Positions 3,986 through 48,182 of a stretch of 64,000 bases of DNA are shown piece after piece. The position numbers and the translations under genes were made by a program. This stretch comes from Escherichia coli (lineage in GTDB: Bacteria; Pseudomonadota; Gammaproteobacteria; Enterobacterales; Enterobacteriaceae): NCBI RefSeq assembly GCF_016903815.1, contig NZ_CP069973.1. One strand, written 5' to 3'. The notes under the pieces were generated by a model. That model did no database searches and was not told where the DNA came from. It saw only the letters and a list, made by a program, of their open reading frames with translations. Each line of letters begins with the position of its first letter. Within the stretch, counting starts at the first letter, position 1.

Positions 3986-4894
<909 letters not shown>

Positions 4895-5452
4895 TCCAGG
4901 AGATGCTCCTGCATGGCTTTCAGATATGCATTTTCTGCGCGAAGATAACGCAGCTCATTCTTCATCTCTTCCGGCGTCATGTTTGCCTCGTTTTCATGGG
5001 TATCATCAGAACGGGTCATGCATTTCTCCTTCCTGCGCCTGATAAAGGCCTCATTACCAGATTTGCGGTAGCCTTTTATCCAGTTTTTAACCGTGTTGTG
5101 GCTGGGAATGTTAAACCGGGCAGCTACCCGGGGTAGAGACTCAGAATGCCCGAGAGCATAAAGAACCACGCAAAGTTTATCTTCAGGAGAATAGCTACGC
5201 CTGTGTCTGCAATCCAGTGCCCGAGGACCGTGAAGAAGAAAAAGATTAATCCAGTGTGAGAGGCTGGTGTGAGAAAGTTGAAAGAGTTTTGCCGTAGAAA
5301 TGATGCCTGCATGACCAGCCAGGTAATGATTTACAGCGGCAAGTTTTACTTCAAATGAATGTTTCATAAACTGCACCTTCAGATGTCAGATTATGTCCAA
5401 CATTTGGGGTGCAGTTCAGCCAGCGTCGCATCCGGCATTTTTTTCACCAACG

Positions 5453-5480
5453 CAAAAAGGCCATCCTGACGGATGGCCTT
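5453..5480 (-). terminator. rrnG distal rho-independent terminator
   Basis: The minus strand reads AAGGCCATCC-GTCA-GGATGGCCTT followed by TTTGCG, just 3' of the 5S rRNA. Confidence 0.75.
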
Positions 5481-5492
5481 TCGCTTAATTTG

Positions 5493-5612
5493 ATGCCTGG
5501 CAGTTCCCTACTCTCGCATGGGGAGACCCCACACTACCATCGGCGCTACGGCGTTTCACTTCTGAGTTCGGCATGGGGTCAGGTGGGACCACCGCGCTAA
5601 GGCCGCCAGGCA
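5493..5612 (-). rRNA. rrfG: 5S ribosomal RNA
   Basis: The reverse complement reads TGCCTGGCGGCC...GGAACTGCCAGGCAT, the canonical 120-nt E. coli 5S sequence. Confidence 0.97.
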
Positions 5613-5704
5613 AATTCTGTTTCATCAGACCGCTTCTGCGTTCTGATTTAATCTGTATCAGGCTGAAAATCTTCTCTCATCCGCCAAAACATCTTCGGCG
5701 TTGT

Positions 5705-8609
<2,905 letters not shown>

Positions 8610-31205: not shown

Positions 31206-32147
31206 TTAATTTATTTTTAATGAATGGTAATCTCGTGAGTTGACCGAAGATTTGAGATAACTGCAATCATTAACCGACAGTATTGCCGCTAATAGGCGAC
31301 ATACCAGTGCCTGCATTTGCAGCAATATATCGTTACCATATTGACTGTTGTTAACACTTGAGAAACCAAGCGGTTGACCAAAAAAAATAGCCTCATGAAA
31401 ATTATCATTGCGGATGCCAGAAATGTTTTTTTTACCTGACACCCATGTGGGGATTGATAACCCATAAATTTTGCACATCCACTTTAATCGCTTGTAATGA
31501 TTTGGCGGTTTTTTATCAGGAGCCTTGTCATGCTCAGCCCACGACAAAGCAAAGCACCCATCAAGTGCCATGTAAAGGTACTGGAATTTTTCAAAAGAAA
31601 GGTATTGTGGGTTTTGAGATAAGAATAGTGCATGCACCACTGCCGCAATTCTTTTGGGGGAGTGCGCATCCTTATGTTTGCCATTTATATAATTAAGAGC
31701 CAGTTCTATGACTTCTTTTTCAGAGCATCCAACGAGAATAAAGTCGGTTAACTTAGTGGGCTTGATAGTGGTTGCATCTAAAAAACCAGCGTCAGTGGTT
31801 GTCAATCTTATTCCCTTGAAAAAAGAAAGGCACCACACAATAAAGTTGAGAGTTTCTAACGAGGATGTATTTTTTAATTTTAGTGTGTGCGTTTTGGGCA
31901 TACTGAATACTCGGTGACTATAAGGCATTGTGGATATGCCACCATTAAGGTTATATACATCTTGGTTTCCAGGGTATATCCAACCTTTCACAACGTTTTT
32001 ATCATTATTAACACGCTCCACTTTCTCATTGAGACCAGGTAAAGTAAGCAAAGAAAATTGTTCAGTCTCAATGTTAACTTCTACTGGATAGTATCCAAAC
32101 TCCGACATAATCTCATTGGGTTGCTGTTCGTCAACTTCACCTTGCAT
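31206..32147 (-). CDS. Hypothetical 313-aa protein with C-terminal RNDNFH (Rx4H, HEPN-like) motif; candidate phage-exclusion factor
   Basis: It is a long AT-rich ORF (22/60 G+C in line 31861). GGAGAAAG lies 2 nt before ATG 32147. The motif is encoded at 31395-31412. It occupies the gpA-to-cos slot where P2 carries tin/old. Confidence 0.7.
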   Translation of the reverse strand: MQGEVDEQQPNEIMSEFGYYPVEVNIETEQFSLLTLPGLNEKVERVNNDKNVVKGWIYPGNQDVYNLNGGISTMPYSHRVFSMPKTHTLKLKNTSSLETLNFIVWCLSFFKGIRLTTTDAGFLDATTIKPTKLTDFILVGCSEKEVIELALNYINGKHKDAHSPKRIAAVVHALFLSQNPQYLSFEKFQYLYMALDGCFALSWAEHDKAPDKKPPNHYKRLKWMCKIYGLSIPTWVSGKKNISGIRNDNFHEAIFFGQPLGFSSVNNSQYGNDILLQMQALVCRLLAAILSVNDCSYLKSSVNSRDYHSLKIN

Positions 32148-32384
32148 ATCTTTCTCCGTTCAAAAATAGGCTCGATAATTATCGAGAGGCTATCATGTTT
32201 GGAAAGAATCAATGTCCGTAATTTTTGTAAATTTAAGGTGATTTATCAATAAATAAGCTGTGCATGCAACAGGTGCATGGTTCTGCATGCGCCGGGGTTA
32301 CCCGTTTTGTACGTGCGCCGCAAGAGCTGGCGGGGATCCAGAGTGGTCATGCAACTGCATTAAAACCGCCCCATAAAGCGGGCA

Positions 32385-32403
32385 GGCGTGGCGGGGAAAG
32401 CAT
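32385..32403. other. cos cohesive-end site (186 type)
   Basis: GGCGTGGCGGGGAAAGCAT matches my memory of the 19-nt 186 cohesive end (P2: GGCGAGGCGGGGAAAGCAC). Confidence 0.8.
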
Positions 32404-32622
32404 TGCGCGCCAGCAGTGATGCGTAATAATAAAAATTATCCTCTGAGCGCGTCGTGATGGCGCTGTCGTGGTCGCTGCTGGTTCGTTGGTGGTCGGGTGT
32501 GTTCGTGCGCGTGAGACGCATCTGATGCGTGATGGTGGTGTGCATGGAAAAGCCACCAGGAGCAGCGGCTTTACAGGAGTGGCAGGATTCAAACTGCTAA
32601 TTATGTTTCTACTATGATTAAA

Positions 32623-33627
32623 CTAATTTACATGTATGTAGAGTTCACCGTCGCCAGACCAATCGGGACACTCTAAAACAAGCCCAAACTGCTTGAATAT
32701 TTCATCAATGATTATTGTTATCTCCCGAAAATCACCAAAACCTGTAATGTGCTGGTCATTAAACTTCCCATAAAGATTCTGAAAAGCAATGCCTAATTCT
32801 GATAATTGATATCTTATCTTTGAGTTGGATAGTGTAAGGGATAGCTTTGGATCGTATTCTTTAATATTGATGTTTAGAGAATGGACATAACCCATCGCAT
32901 AAGCATAAGAGTTGATGATTAGCCTGATACGTTTTTTTACTTCGAGATACATGTCATTCAGAGAAATATTACCGTACTTATAACCCCAGATGAGTTTTTC
33001 AATCTCGTCAGATACTTCATTTACAACAGTGTCAAGATTCTCTAAAAATAAATCGATAGTTTCTTGAGGGGCAGACCCCGAAGACATGTAATTAGCGAGA
33101 TATTCAGACCATGCACGCGTGGCTGAGATAAGAAGCGCGCTACCATACTCGTTGACTGTAAAGTTTTGGGCTAAGCATGTTAGTAAGTTTTTTTCATGTA
33201 CGTGCACTAATTCATGGTGAATGCGATGGATGACTGCGAGGTATCCTTCTTCTTTCAGTTTTAAGAAGCTACCATCATTGAAAAGCTCAACAAAAAAATC
33301 AATCGATAGCACAAGGGTATATTCTTCACATAGCCCATCATTGCCAATTTTTGTTACTAACTGCCCGACGGCTGCGCCCTGTTTGCTATTGGTAAATGAA
33401 CTAGGGGATTTGTGTTGGTAAGAGGATGTTACCTTTTGAAGAGCTTCACTGAAGTTATAGGAAACAATCACGCATTTTAATTTGGAGATATCAAGATTGA
33501 GATTTTTTGTTAAAGCTCGGATAGCTTCTAGTGTGAAATTACCGATATTATTTGCTTCTTGCTCAGTAGCGAAACCTTCGAGGGTTATTTTAAAATCAGT
33601 TTCCAAAATATTAATCTCCGCGCCCAT
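32623..33627 (-). CDS. Hypothetical 334-aa protein with HELVH (HExxH) motif; candidate zinc metallopeptidase-like exclusion factor
   Basis: It is a long AT-rich ORF (20/60 G+C in line 32821). HExxH is encoded at 33202-33216 (verified by hand). It lies between cos and the portal gene. Confidence 0.7.
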   Translation of the reverse strand: MGAEINILETDFKITLEGFATEQEANNIGNFTLEAIRALTKNLNLDISKLKCVIVSYNFSEALQKVTSSYQHKSPSSFTNSKQGAAVGQLVTKIGNDGLCEEYTLVLSIDFFVELFNDGSFLKLKEEGYLAVIHRIHHELVHVHEKNLLTCLAQNFTVNEYGSALLISATRAWSEYLANYMSSGSAPQETIDLFLENLDTVVNEVSDEIEKLIWGYKYGNISLNDMYLEVKKRIRLIINSYAYAMGYVHSLNINIKEYDPKLSLTLSNSKIRYQLSELGIAFQNLYGKFNDQHITGFGDFREITIIIDEIFKQFGLVLECPDWSGDGELYIHVN

Positions 33628-41440: not shown

Positions 41441-41585
41441 CCCGAAAACCAATGGTGACCTGAGCGCAGATATCCGCCGTCTTGAGGGCGCGCTGACCGC
41501 CTGCGCGCTGCAGGTTAAAACCGTCAAACACTGTCAGGATGAACTCGATGCAGAAGCACAAAAGCCTGCGCAAAGCGCTGATTAA
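41295..41585 (+). CDS. lysC: o-spanin lipoprotein (Rz1 / LysC-like), overlapping lysB in another frame
   Basis: The lipobox LMLCVGC is followed by a proline-rich mature part. It has the overlapped architecture typical of P2 lysB/lysC. Confidence 0.78.
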   Translation: MKMKPFAAGITLLCLMLCVGCTPAPPVPVPVIVVSGCPRVSLCPMPGSDPKTNGDLSADIRRLEGALTACALQVKTVKHCQDELDAEAQKPAQSAD

Positions 41586-42015
41586 CGCCGTGCCGCAGCT
41601 CCGAAATAATCCCGATATGCTGCGCCTTTTTGCCGACAACGGCCATACCGATTCCCGACTGGCGAGCTCGCTGTCGTTTGAAAAGGTGTACGTGCTTAAC
41701 GTGGTGGTGACCGACTTCACCGGTGACCTTGATTTGATATTCGTGCCGGTGCAGGCGTGGCTGCGTGAACATCAGCCGGACATTATGACCACCGACGACG
41801 GGCGGGAAAAAGGATTCACCTGGATTATTGATATCAATAACGACGATTCGCTCGATATCAGTATCAGCCTGAGGCTCACCGAGCGCACGCTCGTCAAAGA
41901 GGTCGACGGCGCGCTGCACGTCAGCTATGCCCCTGAGCAGCCACTGCCTGAGCCGGTGACGCGCCCGGTCGAGCTGTACGTTAACGGCGAACTGGTGAGT
42001 AAGTGGGATGAGTGA
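41539..42015 (+). CDS. R: Tail completion protein R
   Basis: The 158-aa product is in the gpR position. Confidence 0.85.
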   Translation: MNSMQKHKSLRKALINAVPQLRNNPDMLRLFADNGHTDSRLASSLSFEKVYVLNVVVTDFTGDLDLIFVPVQAWLREHQPDIMTTDDGREKGFTWIIDINNDDSLDISISLRLTERTLVKEVDGALHVSYAPEQPLPEPVTRPVELYVNGELVSKWDE

Positions 42016-42463
42016 ATTAACCGCGCTGCAGGAACGCCTTGCCGGTCTGATTGCCAGCCTGTCACCGGCGGCACGTCGGCAAATGGCGGTTGAGGTTGCG
42101 AAAAAGCTGCGTACCAGTCAGCAACAGCGTATCAAGCGCCAGCAGGCACCCGACGGCACCCCGTATGCGGCACGAAAGCGCCAGCCGGTGCGGAGCAAGA
42201 AAGGTCGGATTAAACGTGAAATGTTCGCCAAACTGCGCACCAGTCGCTTTATGAAAGCCAAAGGCAGCGACAGTGCGGCGGTGGTGGAGTTTACCGGCAA
42301 GGTGCAGCGCATGGCGCGGGTGCATCAGTACGGCCTAAAAGACCGGCCAAACCGCAACAGCCGGGATGTGCAGTACGAGGCGCGACCGTTGCTCGGATAC
42401 TCTTCATCAGACTTACAAAAAGTTGAGAGTTTAATTATGGATGCTTTATGTCAACGCCATTGA
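42008..42463 (+). CDS. S: Tail completion protein S
   Basis: The 151-aa product is in the gpS position. Confidence 0.85.
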   Translation: MSELTALQERLAGLIASLSPAARRQMAVEVAKKLRTSQQQRIKRQQAPDGTPYAARKRQPVRSKKGRIKREMFAKLRTSRFMKAKGSDSAAVVEFTGKVQRMARVHQYGLKDRPNRNSRDVQYEARPLLGYSSSDLQKVESLIMDALCQRH

Positions 42464-42553
42464 CTTTGGATTCGCTGAGAATTATTATATAACTCAGCGA
42501 TAGAGGTGGACTGGTGTCTAGGTGGGCGTGCCCACTGAGTTGGGTTCGATTCC

Positions 42554-43435
42554 CTAACCTCGTATTATTCCTCTCGATATTTTTATTGCTGGGTTTTCCT
42601 TTCTTATTTCATTTTTAATTTGCTCATCACAAATTAAATAATCTATGTTTTTTGCTTTAACAAGTTCTTTAACGCTAATGTTAATTGAATTTAATAGATT
42701 TGCATTCCGCATGTTAGCCCCTTCATAAGTAACGGATTTAAAATCACATCCTTTTAATATGCAGCTTTTCATTTCGCTATCTGTAAAATACCCCCCTTCA
42801 AAACTGCAGTTTTCGAAAGTGACATTTTGAAAACATGTATTAAATGCCTTAATATTTCTTAGCTTGCAGTTTTTGAATTTAACACTCTTAACTCTATTGC
42901 CTGTAATATTTAGAGCTTGAATTGTGCAATTATCGAAAGAACAATCTCTAATGTATGATTCGCTCATATTCAAGCCGGTTAAGTCAGCGTCTTTAAAATG
43001 TAAATATTTGATAGTGGACATTTTATCAAGTTCAATCCTTGGAACTTGAATGTTATATATTCCTTTAGCATTTAACTGACGTATGATTTTTATCTTCATA
43101 ATATTCAGTTCTGCAGAAGAATGCTTTGCCAGATTTTCAAGATCTTCAATTAGTTCGTGAATAGCATCTTTATTTTGCCTTTTATTTTCAAAATAGTAAA
43201 GAATCACACCCAAAACAAGAAAGTCTAAAATTGAAGAATTTGCATTAACAAGAAAATTCTCCATGAATTTTGAGTTGTAGTTATCATTATAAACAGACAA
43301 CCCTACTATAAGCCCGGAGTATAAAAAAAAGATACCTATAATATATTTCATATTGCTTATTGTACGCCTAAAAGATGAAGTTCTTTTCATTACTACCTGC
43401 CATATGTTTTGTGTGATTTTCGAATGAGTCAACAC
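42554..43435 (-). CDS. Membrane-anchored pentapeptide-repeat protein (moron at the P2 orf30 position)
   Basis: The ORF is very AT-rich (11/60 G+C in line 42601 versus 34/60 in line 42001). Two hydrophobic segments are present (YIIGIFFLYSGLIVGLSVY and ILDFLVLGVILYYF). About 20 consecutive pentads follow (CSFDN CTIQA LNITG ... CDFKS VTYEG ANMRN). The start may be the internal M at 43390. Confidence 0.75.
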   Translation of the reverse strand: MLTHSKITQNIWQVVMKRTSSFRRTISNMKYIIGIFFLYSGLIVGLSVYNDNYNSKFMENFLVNANSSILDFLVLGVILYYFENKRQNKDAIHELIEDLENLAKHSSAELNIMKIKIIRQLNAKGIYNIQVPRIELDKMSTIKYLHFKDADLTGLNMSESYIRDCSFDNCTIQALNITGNRVKSVKFKNCKLRNIKAFNTCFQNVTFENCSFEGGYFTDSEMKSCILKGCDFKSVTYEGANMRNANLLNSINISVKELVKAKNIDYLICDEQIKNEIRKENPAIKISRGIIRG

Positions 43436-43527
43436 TCAAATGATACATGAATGCACACCGAATTGTGTAGAAGAGCATACAGCTGAATCGTTTTGCTCTT
43501 GGCTTTAACAATCGGCATTCTTTGTTC

Positions 43528-44163
43528 ATGAACACATTAAACACCATTCAAGAGTTAGCACGTGCCATTCGCAACCTCATCCGCTCAGGCGTGGTGACTG
43601 AGGTCGATACTGTGCAGGGGCTGTGCCGCGTACAAAGCGGCGGGATCCAGACTACATGGCTGAACTGGCTGACCACCCGCGCCGGTCGTTCGCGGACGTG
43701 GTGGGCTCCCTCGGTCGGTGAGCAGGTTCTGCTGCTGGCAATCGGTGGCGAGCTTGATACCGCTTTCGTGCTGCCGGGTATTTTCTCCGACGATAACCCC
43801 GCCCCGTCTGCCTCGGCGGATGCGTGGCATGTGGCTTTCCCTGATGGTGCGGTCATTGAGTACGAGCCCGAAACCGGCGCGCTGACGGTCAGCGGCATAA
43901 AAACGGCCGACGTGACGGCATCGGAGTCCATCACCGCAACCGTACCGCTGGTACTGGTGAAAGCCTCGACCAGTATCACCCTCGACACCCCGGAGGTGAT
44001 TTGCACCAATAAGCTAACGACGGCGACGCTTGAGGTGCAGAAAGGCGGCAAGATGAGCGGCAATATCGAACATACCGGCGGGTCACTGTCGTCTAATGGC
44101 AAGGTACTCCACACCCATAAACACCCGGGCGACAGCGGCGGGCAAACGGGGGCACCGTTATGA
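43528..44163 (+). CDS. V: Baseplate spike (P2 gpV homolog)
   Basis: MNTLNTIQELARAIRNLIRSG...HTHKHPGDSGGQTGAPL closely parallels P2 gpV. Confidence 0.92.
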   Translation: MNTLNTIQELARAIRNLIRSGVVTEVDTVQGLCRVQSGGIQTTWLNWLTTRAGRSRTWWAPSVGEQVLLLAIGGELDTAFVLPGIFSDDNPAPSASADAWHVAFPDGAVIEYEPETGALTVSGIKTADVTASESITATVPLVLVKASTSITLDTPEVICTNKLTTATLEVQKGGKMSGNIEHTGGSLSSNGKVLHTHKHPGDSGGQTGAPL

Positions 44164-44507
44164 CGGCGCGCTATCAGGGGATGAACCGAAATACCGGCCT
44201 TGGCATCAGCGATACCGAGCATATCAGCCAGAGCATGCGCGATATTCTGCTGACGCCGGTCGGCTCGCGGGTGATGCGTCGTGAATATGGCTCGCTTCTG
44301 TCGGCGCTGATTGATATGCCGCAAAACCCGGCGCTCAGGCTGCAAATTATGGTGGCTTGCTATTCGGCTATCCAGAAGTGGGAACCGCGCATCAGGCTTA
44401 CATCCATCAGCTTTGAGGCCGGCGACGCTGGCGAGATGTATGTCGATATTACCGGGATGCGTACCGATACCGGTGCGTCAGTTTCAACCACTGTTTCACT
44501 GAGTTAA
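44160..44507 (+). CDS. W: Baseplate wedge protein W (gp25-like)
   Basis: The product is 115 aa, the same length as gpW. Confidence 0.9.
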   Translation: MTARYQGMNRNTGLGISDTEHISQSMRDILLTPVGSRVMRREYGSLLSALIDMPQNPALRLQIMVACYSAIQKWEPRIRLTSISFEAGDAGEMYVDITGMRTDTGASVSTTVSLS

Positions 44508-46023: not shown

Positions 46024-46994
46024 CCGCAAAATATTTTGCCATTCTGACCAATCAGGGCGCGGCGCGGCTGGCGAACGCGGCGGCACTCGGTACCAAACTC
46101 AACCTGACGCAGATGGCCGTCGGTGATGCGAATGGTACGTTGCCGACCCCTGACCCGGCGCAGACGAAGCTCATTAACCAGAAACGCATCGCGCCGCTGA
46201 ACCTGCTGACCGTTGACCCGGCCAATACCAGTCAGATTATCGCGGAACAGATTATTCCCGAGAATGAAGGTGGTTTCTGGATCCGCGAGATTGGTCTCTA
46301 TGACGATGATGGTATTCTGATTGCCGTGGCGAACTGTCCGGAGACCTACAAGCCACAACTGCAGGAGGGAAGCGGTCGCACGCAGACCATTCGCATGATT
46401 CTGATTGTGTCGAGCACATCGGCAATCACCCTGAAAATCGACCCGGCAGTCGTGCTGGCAACGCGCCAGTATGTCGACGACAAGATTATCGAGGTGAAAG
46501 GATATGCTGATGACCTGATGAAAAAACATGTTGAGGCCGCCAATCCACACAAGCAGTACCCGTTAATCGCTAATGCTCTGAAAGAAATGGTTGACGCGGG
46601 ACTGGCCGGCGACGTTCTTAAAAACCTTGGTTTGGGAGAAGCGGCAAAACGGAATGTAGGTAACGGGCAAAACCAAATTCCGGATATGGCGGCGTTTGCC
46701 AGTTCACTTTCATCAACGGGTTTTCAAAAACTCCCTTCAGGTCTGATTATTCAGTGGGGTATTGTCAGTGGAGCATCAAACTATACGGTGACTTACCCGG
46801 TAACATTCCCAAATCGTTCACTTGCGCTGTTGGCTGTGCCACATACAACGTCGGTGGCTGGTATATCTGCAATGGGCATAGCGAACTGTTCTGATATCAG
46901 CAAATCACAGTTCTATATAATTGTTGGCGGTATATCTCAGGGAGAAATTGTCAAATATGAAAGGTCCTGTTTTTGGGTAGCAATCGGTGTATAG
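46020..46994 (+). CDS. H: Tail fibre protein H (constant part 46020-46640 fused to the currently expressed variable C-terminal cassette)
   Basis: The N-terminus parallels P2 H and Mu S (MAVGD...GGFWIREIGLYDDDGILIAVAN...). The recombination site lies inside the gene at 46615-46640. Confidence 0.88.
   Translation: MTAKYFAILTNQGAARLANAAALGTKLNLTQMAVGDANGTLPTPDPAQTKLINQKRIAPLNLLTVDPANTSQIIAEQIIPENEGGFWIREIGLYDDDGILIAVANCPETYKPQLQEGSGRTQTIRMILIVSSTSAITLKIDPAVVLATRQYVDDKIIEVKGYADDLMKKHVEAANPHKQYPLIANALKEMVDAGLAGDVLKNLGLGEAAKRNVGNGQNQIPDMAAFASSLSSTGFQKLPSGLIIQWGIVSGASNYTVTYPVTFPNRSLALLAVPHTTSVAGISAMGIANCSDISKSQFYIIVGGISQGEIVKYERSCFWVAIGV
46615..46640 (+). repeat. Left crossover site (gix/hix-like)
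   Basis: TTCTTAAAAACCTTGGTTTGGGAGAA is present. Its right half and about 50 following nt are repeated in inverted orientation at 48100-48170. Confidence 0.75.
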
Positions 46995-47002
46995 GTATAT
47001 CT

Positions 47003-47398
47003 ATGATTTATTTCTCAAAATCGACTAATGGTTTTTTCTTTGATGGTATAAACAGCGACATGCCTGCTGACATTGTTGAGATAAGTACAGACTTATACAA
47101 TGAATTAATTGCCGGACAGCAGGAAGGGGGGAAATTAATCACGTCAGATGAAAATGGTTTACCGGTACTGAAATCTCCGGCGATTGATTATGTCGCACGT
47201 GCGGAAAATCAGCGAATGCAGTTACTTGCTCATGCCGATAATGTCACAGCTGACTGGCGAGTGGAATTAATGCTTGGTGATATCAGCAGTACAGATAAAG
47301 AAAAACTATCCGCCTGGATGAACTACAAAAAAGAAGTAAAAGCCGTCGACACTTCGACGGCTCCTGAGATTAGCTGGCCTGAGTTACCGGAGGCGTAG
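47003..47398 (+). CDS. G: Tail fibre assembly chaperone G (active orientation)
   Basis: MIYFSKSTNGFFFDG... is typical of tail fibre assembly proteins. It follows H. Confidence 0.85.
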   Translation: MIYFSKSTNGFFFDGINSDMPADIVEISTDLYNELIAGQQEGGKLITSDENGLPVLKSPAIDYVARAENQRMQLLAHADNVTADWRVELMLGDISSTDKEKLSAWMNYKKEVKAVDTSTAPEISWPELPEA

Positions 47399-47813
47399 GC
47401 CATTCAATATCTGGCGCACTGGAAGTATTGACCTGTTCCAGTGCGTCCAGGTAATCCAGCCACAAATTATATTGCGCCAGTTCGTCACCGTTCAGACGAC
47501 CAATAGCTGCTTTACCGGGCCATTGCTTACTGTTCATGTAGTCGTTTGCCTGGTTGATTTTTTTCTGCTTTTCGGCGTTCGCAGCTTCCACTTCTTCATC
47601 GTGACTTAACGGTGGTAAATCCACCCATACAGGCTGCCCATTTTCATCAGCGCCGCGGGTTTGCCCTTCTGGTGGCATTCCTGAATATGTGAGAAAAACG
47701 TCATCAGAAACACCTACTAAGTCATCTGGCCAGGTGTTGGCTGCTATGTACAGCGACTTCATTTCTTCAGGGTAAAAACCTAGAGTTGATGGAGAAAAAT
47801 AATAAAGAGTCAT
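47370..47813 (-). CDS. Alternative tail fibre assembly chaperone (inverted cassette)
   Basis: MTLYYFSPSTLGFYPEE... is present, in the same family as G but on the opposite strand inside the invertible segment. Confidence 0.8.
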   Translation of the reverse strand: MTLYYFSPSTLGFYPEEMKSLYIAANTWPDDLVGVSDDVFLTYSGMPPEGQTRGADENGQPVWVDLPPLSHDEEVEAANAEKQKKINQANDYMNSKQWPGKAAIGRLNGDELAQYNLWLDYLDALEQVNTSSAPDIEWPTPPVTQAS

Positions 47814-47814
47814 A

Positions 47815-48165
47815 TCAGCTTCCTATTGCGAACCAGCGAAAGACATAAACCCCAGATGTTGCATCACAGCGCATCAGGAAATTTGTTTTTGTAAAACTTC
47901 CTGCCGCTCCCGCAATAACCTTTCCACCACCATTGTCGTAAGAGACTACAACCTGATGGCAAATGTTCGGAAAAGAAACCGAGAAGTTAATTGCATTTCC
48001 CGTATTACCTGTCGCACCCACTCCGGCTGTTGCTGATCCCCATTGAATGATTAAGCCGCTAGGTAGTTTTTGATATCCAGCAGCACCCGTTACAGACAAA
48101 AATGAATTTATATCTGGAATCTGGTTTTCCCCTGTTCCGACATCCCGTTTCGCTGCTTCTCCCAA
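47815..48165 (-). CDS. Alternative tail fibre C-terminal cassette (silent; needs inversion to fuse to H constant part)
   Basis: GEAAKRDVGTGENQIPDI parallels GEAAKRNVGNGQNQIPDM of H after the crossover site. It has no independent translation start context. Confidence 0.75.
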   Translation of the reverse strand: MGEAAKRDVGTGENQIPDINSFLSVTGAAGYQKLPSGLIIQWGSATAGVGATGNTGNAINFSVSFPNICHQVVVSYDNGGGKVIAGAAGSFTKTNFLMRCDATSGVYVFRWFAIGS

Positions 48166-48182
48166 ACCAACCTTTTAGAAAA
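48157..48182 (-). repeat. Right crossover site (inverted)
   Basis: The reverse complement TTTTCTAAAAGGTTGGTTTGGGAGAA shares 14 contiguous nt plus AAAA with the left site. Confidence 0.75.

What the first reader, a model, noticed from the sequence alone, without database searches (positions are those of the whole stretch)
42464..43521. Two-TM pentapeptide-repeat protein as a moron between tail genes S and V (P2 orf30 position)
What the sequence shows: a 293-codon ORF lies on the opposite strand, embedded in the otherwise co-directional late tail operon. It is extremely AT-rich (11/60 G+C in the line starting 42601, versus 34/60 just upstream in gene S). The N-terminus has two hydrophobic segments. 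The C-terminal roughly 100 aa form an uninterrupted run of about 20 pentads with a hydrophobic centre residue (CSFDN CTIQA LNITG NRVKS VKFKN CKLRN IKAFN TCFQN VTFEN CSFEG ... ANMRN ANLLN). Established knowledge: P2 has an AT-rich foreign ORF (orf30) at this same S/V junction. Pentapeptide-repeat proteins form right-handed beta-helices, and some (Qnr, MfpA) mimic DNA and bind gyrase. Inference: a membrane-tethered DNA-mimic-like beta-helix expressed from a prophage could interfere with incoming phage DNA, with DNA-handling enzymes, or with the injection machinery (superinfection exclusion). I do not know of a described defence system with this architecture.
Basis: partly seen in the sequence, partly recalled or inferred. 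Interest (0 to 1): 0.7.

Follow-up and report, generated by a model that had tools for sequence, protein, structure and literature searches.

The report
Prophage membrane-anchored pentapeptide-repeat cargo gene
A foreign, AT-rich gene sits between two tail-gene operons of an intact 186-like E. coli prophage and encodes an inner-membrane protein with a cytoplasmic pentapeptide-repeat beta-helix; it is most likely an untested single-gene anti-phage cargo, not a DNA mimic.

Summary
A 1,058-bp island (GC 0.32, prophage 0.52) lies between gpS and gpV of an intact 186-like prophage. It carries one opposite-strand gene, most likely 278 codons from ATG 43390 rather than 293.

Most close 186-like phages have an empty slot. 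Others carry different AT-rich cargo, including PD-T4-7-like, FRG and DUF2971 genes. P2 Orf30 shares the position but is unrelated.

The DNA-mimic idea is not supported. The repeat domain is net positive in all 29 family members, and Qnr/MfpA models score far below cutoff. The closest precedent is Hailong HalA (pentapeptide repeats plus an ion-channel domain). Here the domain order is reversed, the membrane module differs and there is no HalB partner.

The N-terminal module defines a large unnamed architecture family (678 clusters; 141 of 150 sampled carry pentapeptide repeats) with a near-universal intramembrane acidic residue.

Best guess: a stand-alone membrane anti-phage effector. This is untested.

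The parts
42464..43521 (.). AT-rich cargo island between the gpS stop codon and the gpV start
   Evidence: GC 0.324 against 0.515 for the prophage. Present in 13 of 5,426 complete E. coli genomes, always on the chromosome. Absent from 63 of 80 close 186-like viral contigs.
42554..43390 (-). Coding sequence of the 278-aa membrane pentapeptide-repeat protein (stop codon included)
   Evidence: PGAP CDS WP_001530900.1. phrog_12514 E 2e-142. dN/dS about 0.05-0.15 between genera.
43391..43435 (-). In-frame upstream extension to GTG; probably 5' leader rather than coding
   Evidence: No Shine-Dalgarno-like sequence before the GTG, and it overlaps the predicted -10 region. ATG 43390 is preceded by GGCAGGTAGTA. 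Homologs do not conserve this extension.
43289..43348 (-). TM helix 1 (aa 15-34), preceded by a basic N-terminus (+4)
   Evidence: Hydropathy scan and charge count. Helix 15-34 in the AF2 model, pLDDT about 65-71.
43190..43258 (-). TM helix 2 (aa 45-67) with the polar motif N49-A-N-S-S-I-x-D56-F
   Evidence: Nearly invariant in the close family. An acidic residue at position 56 in 149 of 150 broad-family members, and G61 in 131 of 150.
43055..43189 (-). Cytoplasmic juxtamembrane and linker helices (aa 68-112)
   Evidence: AF2 helices 40-87 and 93-108, pLDDT 85-94. This stretch is conserved together with the TM hairpin as one module.
42686..43054 (-). Pentapeptide-repeat right-handed beta-helix (aa 113-235; 20 clean pentads at 133-232)
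42557..42685 (-). C-terminal helical tail (aa 236-278)
   Evidence: AF2 helices 240-243 and 256-265. Conserved A246, Y251, C254 and K270.
42464..42562 (+). tRNA-derived remnant that overlaps the gene's stop codon and fills the 3' flank (reads as tRNA-like in the gpS direction)
   Evidence: Conserved in all 12 family loci aligned. The same pattern hits a genuine tRNA-Met in L107. The hairpin has 3 pairs with compensatory changes. ARAGORN and Rfam do not call it a tRNA. It is absent from the other cargoes of the slot.
43464..43481 (.). TGT-N12-ACA dyad; probable late-activator (Ogr/B-type) site of the pV promoter
   Evidence: Its centre lies 55.5 bp before the V ATG at 43528. An equivalent dyad is kept in the Klebsiella, Salmonella and Enterobacter loci. 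P2 annotates an activator site at the corresponding place. The function here is inferred.
43440..43469 (-). Candidate sigma-70 promoter of the pentapeptide gene (TACACA-18-TATCAT)
   Evidence: Consensus scan, 9 of 12 matches. The number of such sites is no higher than in shuffled sequence, so this is a prediction only.
42008..42463 (+). gpS (tail completion), left flank; its last ~20 codons differ from those in empty-junction phages
   Evidence: Pfam Phage_tail_S E 3.7e-36. C-terminus comparison.
43528..44163 (+). gpV baseplate spike, right flank
   Evidence: Pfam Phage_base_V, Phage_spike and Apex. PGAP start.

Best explanation
The gene is a self-contained accessory gene ('moron') of P2/186-like prophages. 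It most likely protects the lysogen against other phages by acting at the cytoplasmic face of the inner membrane.

Proposed mechanism:
- The protein inserts with both ends in the cytoplasm.
- Its basic pentapeptide beta-helix acts as the ligand-binding or gating domain, for phage nucleic acid or a phage protein.
- The 2-TM hairpin, which carries an almost universal intramembrane Asp plus polar Asn/Ser residues, oligomerises into an ion-conducting or membrane-perturbing effector.
- Binding or release of the ligand during infection opens it. The membrane depolarises and the infection aborts or is excluded.

This is the logic of Hailong HalA, but in a single gene, with reversed domain order and a different membrane module.

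Shown here: the cargo status, the domain architecture, the predicted topology, purifying selection, the recurrent slot, and the defence-type neighbours in that slot in sister phages.

Inferred: expression in the lysogen, oligomerisation, pore activity, the ligand, and any anti-phage phenotype.

I put about 0.55 on 'anti-phage function of some kind' and about 0.35 on this specific effector mechanism.
For: - It is a foreign single-gene island on the opposite strand, in the gap between two late operons.
- It is absent from most close relatives and rare in E. coli, at 13 of 5,426 genomes.
- dN/dS is about 0.05-0.15 across genera.
- It occupies the same slot in prophages of Escherichia, Klebsiella, Salmonella, Enterobacter, Yersinia and Edwardsiella despite only 52-81% identity. 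It also occurs alone in the accessory end of a lambdoid prophage.
- Alternative cargoes in the same slot include a PD-T4-7-like gene and the PADLOC candidate families PDC-S15 (FRG) and PDC-S31 (DUF2971).
- The N-terminus is basic (+4), with two TM helices joined by a loop of about 10 residues, so the beta-helix is predicted to be cytoplasmic.
- TM2 carries an acidic residue in 149 of 150 family members, together with polar E/N and H/N positions.
- The N-terminal module is coupled to pentapeptide repeats in 141 of 150 proteins that were found using that module alone.
- HalA sets a precedent for pentapeptide repeats plus a membrane channel acting as a defence effector that binds DNA.
- No partner gene was seen in any of the 9 contexts examined.
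Against: - There is no experimental or transcript evidence of any kind.
- PADLOC has no model for it, and the only hit (RT-associated SLATT) is weak and occurs in 1 of 29 members.
- In other phyla the broader architecture family often sits in ordinary chromosomal synteny. Nine Cytophagales loci have MgtE, a dehydrogenase, this gene, then a histidine kinase. Thioploca loci have an ABC-2 permease next to it. So the fold is not intrinsically a defence module.
- The inter-TM loop is too short for a K-channel-type pore helix and filter.
- The TM hairpin is modelled only at pLDDT 62-71, and only as a monomer.
- HalA needs HalB to stay closed. A lone channel would need its own closed state.
- The promoter prediction is weak, with sites no more frequent than in shuffled sequence.
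Confidence: 0.35

Rival explanations
1. Superinfection exclusion by blocking genome entry. The protein sits at the inner membrane and its cytoplasmic beta-helix binds the incoming DNA end, ejection proteins or a host entry factor, so that injection stalls. There is no pore and no cell death. This is the Sie/Imm type of mechanism.
For: It is a prophage-encoded small inner-membrane protein in a cargo slot. The beta-helix is basic and cytoplasmic, which is compatible with binding nucleic acid.
Against: The strongly conserved intramembrane Asp and polar TM2 motif are not explained by a simple tether. The architecture family is widespread outside prophages. No homology to known Sie or Imm proteins was found in PHROGs or PADLOC.
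Confidence: 0.2
2. A lysogenic-conversion gene unrelated to phages. It would be a membrane ion-handling or signalling protein that changes host physiology (ion homeostasis, envelope stress), recruited by prophages from a widespread chromosomal family.
For: The broader family is chromosomal and syntenic with MgtE, a cNMP-binding histidine kinase, response regulators or an ABC-2 permease in several phyla. The intramembrane acidic residue is conserved, as in ion-binding membrane proteins.
Against: The enterobacterial clade is almost confined to prophage cargo slots. Sister phages carry defence-type genes there. This clade has replaced the E-x-H TM2 motif with N-x-N, suggesting a derived function.
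Confidence: 0.2
3. A counter-defence or lytic-cycle helper. The beta-helix would bind and neutralise a host defence or DNA-handling protein to benefit the carrier phage, as reported for a Vibrio phage pentapeptide protein that counters the Sucellos system.
For: There is a precedent for a phage pentapeptide-repeat protein with anti-defence activity (bioRxiv 10.1101/2024.07.02.601686). Pentapeptide proteins are common in virulent phages too.
Against: Membrane anchoring and the conserved polar TM2 are not needed for a soluble inhibitor. The gene is divergent from the late operons and absent from most close relatives that infect the same hosts.
Confidence: 0.1
4. A Qnr/MfpA-like DNA mimic that binds gyrase or topoisomerase IV and alters quinolone susceptibility or DNA transactions.
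Against: The repeat domain is net positive in all 29 members. NCBIfam Qnr and MfpA scores of 27-28 bits fall far below cutoffs of 240-360. The protein is membrane-anchored rather than soluble. Similarity of pentapeptide folds is generic.
Confidence: 0.04
5. A structural or assembly accessory of the tail, encoded with the tail genes.
For: Its position between tail-completion and baseplate genes.
Against: It is on the opposite strand, at 30% GC, with two TM helices. It is absent from 63 of 80 close relatives and from 186, PSP3 and EtG, all of which build tails. It also occurs in a lambdoid prophage's accessory end.
Confidence: 0.01

Closest known systems
Hailong effector HalA (NCBIfam NF051894; PDB 9nyi)
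   Different: The similarity covers the repeats only (HMM positions 22-130 of 338), at 44.9 bits against a cutoff of 250. The domain order is reversed, with the TM hairpin at the N-terminus here. No IRK-type channel domain was detected. No HalB nucleotidyltransferase lies next to it in any of the 9 contexts.
Qnr / MfpA / AlbG / EfsQnr pentapeptide-repeat topoisomerase-protection proteins
   Different: Those proteins are soluble, dimeric, acidic DNA mimics (established knowledge). This one is membrane-anchored and net basic, and scores far below their family cutoffs.
P2 Orf30 (NP_046770)
   Same: It occupies the same genomic slot: opposite strand, AT-rich, nonessential, between the O-operon terminator after S and the pV promoter.
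   Different: There is no sequence relationship (BLASTP E 0.37). Orf30 has no Pfam domain and no tRNA-like remnant.
Single-gene prophage cargo in the same slot (PD-T4-7-like, FRG/PDC-S15, DUF2971/PDC-S31)
   Same: The same insertion point, a similar size (0.9-1.5 kb) and a similar GC (0.32-0.38) in sister 186-like phages.
   Different: These are unrelated proteins and most are soluble. Only PD-T4-7 belongs to a named defence system in PADLOC. PDC-S15 and PDC-S31 are candidate families.
SLATT 2-TM effector domains (PADLOC 'RT-associated SLATT')
   Same: A 2-TM hairpin followed by a helix at the start of a conflict-system protein. There is a weak PADLOC hit (E 6e-5 with the 293-aa ORF).
   Different: Only 1 of 29 family members hits it (E 0.003). 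There are no Pfam SLATT hits. I do not regard homology as established.

Membership tests
Pentapeptide-repeat proteins (Pfam PF00805/PF13599/PF13576) | Tandem five-residue repeats A(D/N)LXX with a hydrophobic centre residue | tested here: met
   Pentapeptide_4 at 60 bits (cutoff 38) and Pentapeptide at 38.5 bits (cutoff 20.2). There are 20 in-register pentads at aa 133-232.
Pentapeptide-repeat proteins (Pfam PF00805/PF13599/PF13576) | Right-handed quadrilateral beta-helix fold | tested here: met
Qnr/MfpA DNA-mimic topoisomerase protectors | Score above the curated family cutoff | tested here: not met
   Qnr 27.4 bits against 240; MfpA 28 bits against 360.
Qnr/MfpA DNA-mimic topoisomerase protectors | Strongly acidic surface that mimics B-form DNA | tested here: not met
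   The repeat domain has net charge +3 here and +1 to +7 in all 29 family members. Only net charge was computed, not surface electrostatics.
Qnr/MfpA DNA-mimic topoisomerase protectors | Soluble cytoplasmic protein that binds gyrase or topoisomerase IV | not testable with these tools
   Two predicted TM helices argue against solubility. Binding needs biochemistry.
Hailong HalA | Score above the NCBIfam equivalog cutoff over the full length | tested here: not met
   44.9 bits against a cutoff of 250. Only profile positions 22-130 of 338 align. No member of the broad family does better than E 3e-14.
Hailong HalA | Ion-channel (IRK-type) transmembrane domain following the repeat domain | tested here: not met
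Hailong HalA | Adjacent HalB nucleotidyltransferase gene | tested here: not met
   The island holds a single gene. No nucleotidyltransferase lies beside the homologs in the 9 contexts examined.
Hailong HalA | Binds oligodeoxyadenylate and gates ion flux | not testable with these tools
   This needs biochemistry or electrophysiology.
SLATT 2-TM effector domain | Significant and consistent profile match across family members | tested here: not met
   PADLOC RTasSLATT matches 1 of 29 members at E 0.003. There is no Pfam SLATT hit.
Prophage moron / hotspot cargo | Extra gene between conserved phage genes, absent from close relatives, with deviant composition | tested here: met
   In 63 of 80 relatives the S-V gap is only 72-87 bp.
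Prophage moron / hotspot cargo | Own promoter and terminator, expressed from the repressed prophage | tested here: inconclusive
   Only a 9/12 sigma-70-like site was found, and no canonical terminator. A conserved hairpin in the tRNA-like remnant might serve as terminator. No expression data are available.
P2 Orf30 family | Sequence homology to P2 Orf30 | tested here: not met
   BLASTP E 0.37.
Unnamed '2-TM + linker helix + pentapeptide repeat' architecture family | N-terminal module with TM2 motif (E/N)-A-(H/N)-(G/S)-x-x-x-D and a juxtamembrane helix, followed by pentapeptide repeats | tested here: met
   A profile of aa 1-118 alone finds 678 clusters at E <= 1e-3. Of the 150 sampled, 141 carry Pentapeptide. 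Motif conservation is shown.

The most novel reading that the evidence does not exclude
The protein is a stand-alone, ligand-gated membrane effector. Its cytoplasmic pentapeptide beta-helix directly senses a phage nucleic acid or protein and opens a pore formed by the Asp-containing 2-TM hairpin. That would be a one-gene counterpart of Hailong needing no nucleotidyltransferase guard. If so, it would give a first function to a large unnamed '2-TM + pentapeptide' family (at least 678 clusters across many phyla). It would also establish the gpS/gpV junction of P2-like phages as a further defence hotspot.
Probability: 0.2. Interest if true: 0.75.

Novelty: new variant of a known kind. Interest (0 to 1): 0.5.

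Why it matters
If it protects lysogens, it would be a compact single-gene membrane defence. It uses the same building blocks as Hailong HalA (pentapeptide repeats plus a membrane module) in a different arrangement and without the DNA-synthesising partner. That raises the question of how it is kept closed and what it senses.

It would also give a first functional handle on a widespread but unnamed membrane pentapeptide family.

Finally, it would draw attention to the gpS/gpV junction. Recent surveys of P2-like phages mention this slot only in passing, yet it holds at least nine different cargoes in a small sample.

If it shows no phage phenotype, it is simply one more prophage gene of unknown function.

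Tried and rejected
1. **SLATT homology of the TM hairpin.** The first PADLOC hit looked promising, but only 1 of 29 members reproduces it. Rejected as evidence.
2. **HalA membership.** Rejected on score, domain order, membrane module and lack of a partner gene.
3. **Homology to P2 Orf30.** None found.
4. **A real tRNA gene or att-site tRNA at the 3' flank.** ARAGORN and Rfam find nothing. RNAalifold supports one hairpin only, not a cloverleaf. I kept it as a tRNA-derived remnant.
5. **Literature searches.** I looked for a tested membrane pentapeptide defence protein and for orf30-slot studies and found nothing specific. The primary Hailong paper (PMC12360457) is not held, so HalA's features are taken from two secondary papers and from the PDB/NCBIfam matches.
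6. **Technical misses.**
   - One viral-contig scan was wasted on a pattern whose gap was one base too long (corrected).
   - The 24-sequence alignment was too diverse for the search for related loci (redone with 8 sequences).
   - The AFDB50 library was unavailable.
   - BFVD gave only unannotated pentapeptide proteins.
7. **PADLOC scan of the prophage's two cos-proximal hypothetical genes.** No hits.
Full report
**1. The observation**

The window carries an intact 186-like prophage of about 31.6 kb. It maps to window ~23,628-55,241, between rplS and yfiB, by comparison with E. coli strain 222, which is 99.9% identical over this region.

Within its late region, gpR (41539-42015), gpS (42008-42463), gpV (43522/43528-44163) and gpW (44160-44507) are identified by strong Pfam matches. 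Between the gpS stop and the gpV start lies a 1,058-bp island.

- Island GC is 0.324 and CDS GC is 0.296, against 0.515 for the prophage. GC3 is 0.265 against 0.612 for gpS.
- The only substantial ORF runs on the minus strand, 42554-43435, 293 codons from a GTG.
- PGAP starts it at ATG 43390, giving 278 aa (WP_001530900.1). I agree. That ATG is preceded by GGCAGGTAGTA, whereas the GTG has no ribosome-binding sequence and lies inside the best promoter-like site. Homologs do not conserve the extension.

All residue numbers below refer to the 278-aa product.

**2. The protein**

- **Topology.** Hydropathy gives two TM segments, aa 15-34 and 45-67, joined by a loop of about 10 residues. The N-terminus carries a net charge of +4, so by the positive-inside rule both ends are cytoplasmic (inference).
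- **Repeats.** Pfam finds pentapeptide repeats (Pentapeptide_4 E 1.9e-16, Pentapeptide E 8e-10). Residues 133-232 form 20 in-register pentads.
- **Model.** An AlphaFold2 model built on 29 homologs has mean pLDDT 85.4.
  - TM hairpin: pLDDT 62-71.
  - A long helix continuing from TM2 (40-87) and a second helix (93-108): pLDDT 85-94.
  - Beta-helix from about 118 to 235: pLDDT 95-97.
  - A short helical tail.
- **Selection.** Between E. coli and Klebsiella or Edwardsiella copies (81% amino-acid identity), pN is about 0.10 and pS 0.63-0.71, giving dN/dS of about 0.05-0.08. Salmonella against Enterobacter gives 0.15. Synonymous sites are near saturation, so the ratios are rough, but they are clearly well below 1.

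**3. Cargo status and the slot**

- The island is present in 13 of 5,426 complete E. coli genomes, always once and always on the chromosome. It is also in phage vB_EcoM-613R3, where the gene is labelled 'YjcF'.
- Phages 186, PSP3, EtG, the Yersinia vB_YpM phages and others match both flanks but lack the insert.
- Among the 80 IMG/VR contigs whose gpS is closest to the window's, 63 have a gpS-gpV gap of only 72-87 bp and 17 carry a 0.93-1.5 kb insert of GC 0.32-0.38. This sample is ranked by similarity to the window, so it is not a prevalence estimate.
- Five of the 17 inserts are this gene. The other 12 are:
  - a UPF0489 protein (3 contigs);
  - a DUF2971 protein matching PADLOC PDC-S31 (1);
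  - a protein matching PD-T4-7 (2);
  - an FRG-domain protein matching PDC-S15 (1);
  - a 347-aa membrane protein (1);
  - a HIT-family protein paired with a membrane protein (2);
  - a 361-aa protein (1);
  - a lipoprotein paired with an amidase_2 protein (1).
- P2 has its nonessential Orf30 in the equivalent place, on the opposite strand between the annotated O-operon terminator and the pV activator site. Orf30 is unrelated to this protein (BLASTP E 0.37, no Pfam domain).
- The slot is therefore a gap between two operons that repeatedly collects single-gene or two-gene cargo, part of it defence-type.
- Recent surveys emphasise the old/tin and Z/fun hotspots and mention cargo 'within the tail genes' only in passing.

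**4. The close family**

A search of 5.8 billion proteins returns only 29 clusters. Twenty-eight are enterobacterial at 52-99% identity, and one is a distant Paenibacillus protein at 27%.

Nine genomic contexts were read:
- Seven are the gpS/gpV slot of P2-like prophages: Escherichia, Klebsiella, Salmonella, Enterobacter hormaechei, E. cloacae, Yersinia and Edwardsiella (window).
- One is a lone gene at the accessory end of a Citrobacter lambdoid prophage, between an SRAP gene and umuDC/dinI/tail-fibre genes.
- One is chromosomal, next to an RHS toxin.

No nucleotidyltransferase, reverse transcriptase or other recurrent partner appears. PHROGs already holds the family as phrog_12514, function unknown.

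**5. The broader architecture family**

A profile of the N-terminal 118 residues alone (TM hairpin plus linker) finds 678 clusters at E <= 1e-3 among 1.84 billion representatives, 56 of them at E <= 1e-10. Of the 150 sequences sampled (the 149 best new hits plus the query), 141 carry pentapeptide repeats. The membrane module and the beta-helix therefore form a fixed pair.

- Sources name these proteins only 'pentapeptide repeat-containing protein' or 'YjbI'.
- TM2 carries the motif L-V-(E/N)-A-(H/N)-(G/S)-x-x-x-D. Glu occurs in 116 and Asn in 29 of 150 at position 49. His occurs in 113 and Asn in 23 at position 51. Asp or Glu occurs in 149 at position 56, and Gly in 131 at position 61.
- A conserved juxtamembrane helix follows (EEIDDFRGW..EA..RI.GNIKRLN). 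The prophage clade is the N-x-N variant.
- Thirty reference-genome loci span Bacteroidota, Chloroflexota, Planctomycetota, Nitrospirota, Thermodesulfobacteriota, Gammaproteobacteria, Firmicutes and Actinobacteria.
- Their neighbourhoods are mixed.
  - Nine Cytophagales/Cesiribacter loci share a conserved order: MgtE, a 2-hydroxyacid dehydrogenase, this gene, then a cNMP-binding histidine kinase.
  - Three Thioploca/Marithrix loci have an abutting ABC-2 permease.
  - Some loci have a response regulator upstream.
  - Only sporadic loci have a BglII restriction-modification pair, an OLD-like ATPase or an integrase.
- The fold is thus not intrinsically a defence module. The enterobacterial prophage clade looks like a derived, mobilised branch.

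**6. What it is not**

- **Not a Qnr/MfpA-type DNA mimic.** The repeat domain is net +3 here and +1 to +7 in all 29 family members. The NCBIfam Qnr and MfpA models score 27-28 bits against cutoffs of 240-360. The protein is also membrane-anchored.
- **Not a HalA.** NF051894 is the best NCBIfam hit, but at 44.9 bits against a cutoff of 250 and only over profile positions 22-130. No channel domain is detected, the domain order is reversed, and there is no HalB.
- **Not demonstrably SLATT**.
- **Not a tail component** (paragraph 3).

**7. Most likely mechanism**

HalA shows that a cytoplasmic pentapeptide-repeat domain can bind DNA and gate a membrane ion channel that arrests the infected cell.

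The present protein has the same two ingredients. It also has an almost universally conserved acidic residue plus polar residues inside TM2. These are hard to explain for a mere anchor but are expected for an ion path or an oligomer interface.

It is also foreign, selected, stand-alone and located in a slot where sister phages carry defence-type genes. Taking these points together, I favour a single-gene membrane anti-phage effector: the basic beta-helix senses a phage nucleic acid or protein, and the TM hairpin oligomerises to depolarise or perturb the membrane.

My probabilities are about 0.55 for any anti-phage role and about 0.35 for this mechanism.

- Shown: architecture, predicted topology, conservation and context.
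- Inferred: expression in lysogens, oligomerisation, conductance, the ligand and the phenotype.

Rival explanations are an injection block of the Sie type (0.2), a host-physiology or ion-handling conversion gene (0.2), a counter-defence or lytic helper (0.1; precedent), Qnr-like topoisomerase protection (0.04) and a structural role (0.01).

A practical point: at 30% GC the gene is a likely H-NS target. A recent preprint abstract reports H-NS silencing of AT-rich immunity loci (listed), so phenotypes should also be tested in an hns background.

**8. Regulatory anatomy (inference)**

- The right edge of the island still has to provide the pV late promoter. A TGT-N12-ACA dyad lies at 43464-43481, with its centre 55.5 bp upstream of the V ATG. 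An equivalent dyad is kept in the Klebsiella, Salmonella and Enterobacter loci. P2 annotates an activator site at the corresponding position.
- The best sigma-70-like site for the pentapeptide gene (TACACA-18-TATCAT, 43469-43440) overlaps that dyad. The scan finds no more such sites than in shuffled sequence, so this is only a prediction.
- Phages that carry the cassette also share a distinct gpS C-terminus over the last ~20 residues. This suggests that exchange occurs by recombination within the end of gpS.

**9. Side finding**

The roughly 95 nt that overlap and follow the stop codon (42464-42562) are conserved in every family locus, including the lambdoid context. They are far better conserved than the gene's synonymous sites.

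- The same sequence pattern hits a genuine tRNA-Met in another phage contig. The element has D-arm-like and T-arm-like blocks reading in the gpS direction.
- It lacks a 5' acceptor strand and is not called by ARAGORN or Rfam.
- One hairpin shows compensatory changes at 3 of its 6 pairs.
- The element is absent from the other cargoes of the slot and from the P2 Orf30 region.
- Several homolog ORFs read through into it, which explains their odd C-terminal tails.
- Its role is unresolved. It could be a terminator, an RNA-processing signal or a recombination site.

**10. Verdict**

A precedent with related building blocks, HalA, now exists.

It is best described as a new variant of a known kind, namely prophage-borne membrane effectors that use pentapeptide repeats. 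It belongs to a large architecture family that has no name and no known function.

Noticed in passing
window 42464-42562 (+ strand reading); also L002, L007, L011, L012, L095, L097, L099, L100, L105, L108, L109: A tRNA-derived remnant of about 95 nt (D-arm-like and T-arm-like blocks, one hairpin with compensatory changes) always follows the pentapeptide gene. It is more conserved than the gene's synonymous sites and is absent from other cargo in the same slot. ARAGORN and Rfam do not call it a tRNA. Its function is unknown.
   Followed up: partly
L099 ~7000-7050 (Enterobacter cloacae CP009756): The first 14 nt of that remnant (CGAGGTTAGGGAAT) are tandemly triplicated at the end of the homologous gene.
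   Followed up: no
window 46621-48170: A 1.55-kb segment in the tail-fibre / tail-fibre-assembly region is inverted relative to the otherwise 99.9% identical prophage of E. coli strain 222. There a frameshifted recombinase gene lies next to it. It looks like an invertible host-range segment.
   Followed up: no
window ~31206-33606 (minus strand): The classical cos-proximal hotspot of this prophage (between the portal gene and the replication gene) holds two hypothetical genes of 313 and 327 aa with no PADLOC match. A DinI-like gene lies nearby. These are possible further uncharacterised cargo.
   Followed up: partly
L021/L022 ~4441-5834 (IMG/VR 186-like contigs): In these phages the gpS/gpV slot holds a two-gene cassette: a HIT-family (HxHxH) protein plus a 190-aa multi-TM protein, with no PADLOC match. 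This is a candidate two-gene system.
   Followed up: no
L084/L090, L071, L092 (IMG/VR 186-like contigs), gpS/gpV gap: The same slot carries a PD-T4-7-like gene, an FRG-domain gene (PADLOC PDC-S15) and a DUF2971 gene (PDC-S31). The junction behaves as a small defence-type hotspot that recent P2 surveys barely mention.
   Followed up: partly
window 42400-42463 (end of gpS): The last ~20 residues of gpS differ between phages that carry the pentapeptide cassette (...SSDLQKVESLIMDALCQRH) and empty-junction phages (...TRDDEQMIEDVIIRHLGK). This suggests the cassette is exchanged together with the 3' end of gpS.
   Followed up: partly
L114, L119-L122, L127, L129, L130, L135 (Cytophagales/Cesiribacter genomes): Distant members of the 2-TM + pentapeptide family sit in a conserved chromosomal order: MgtE, a 2-hydroxyacid dehydrogenase, the gene, then a cNMP-binding histidine kinase. 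This hints at a physiological, possibly ion-related, role outside prophages.
   Followed up: partly
GenBank ON470592 23354-24232 (phage vB_EcoM-613R3): The identical gene is annotated 'YjcF' in the phage record. The label probably reflects generic pentapeptide-repeat similarity rather than orthology. I did not test this.
   Followed up: no
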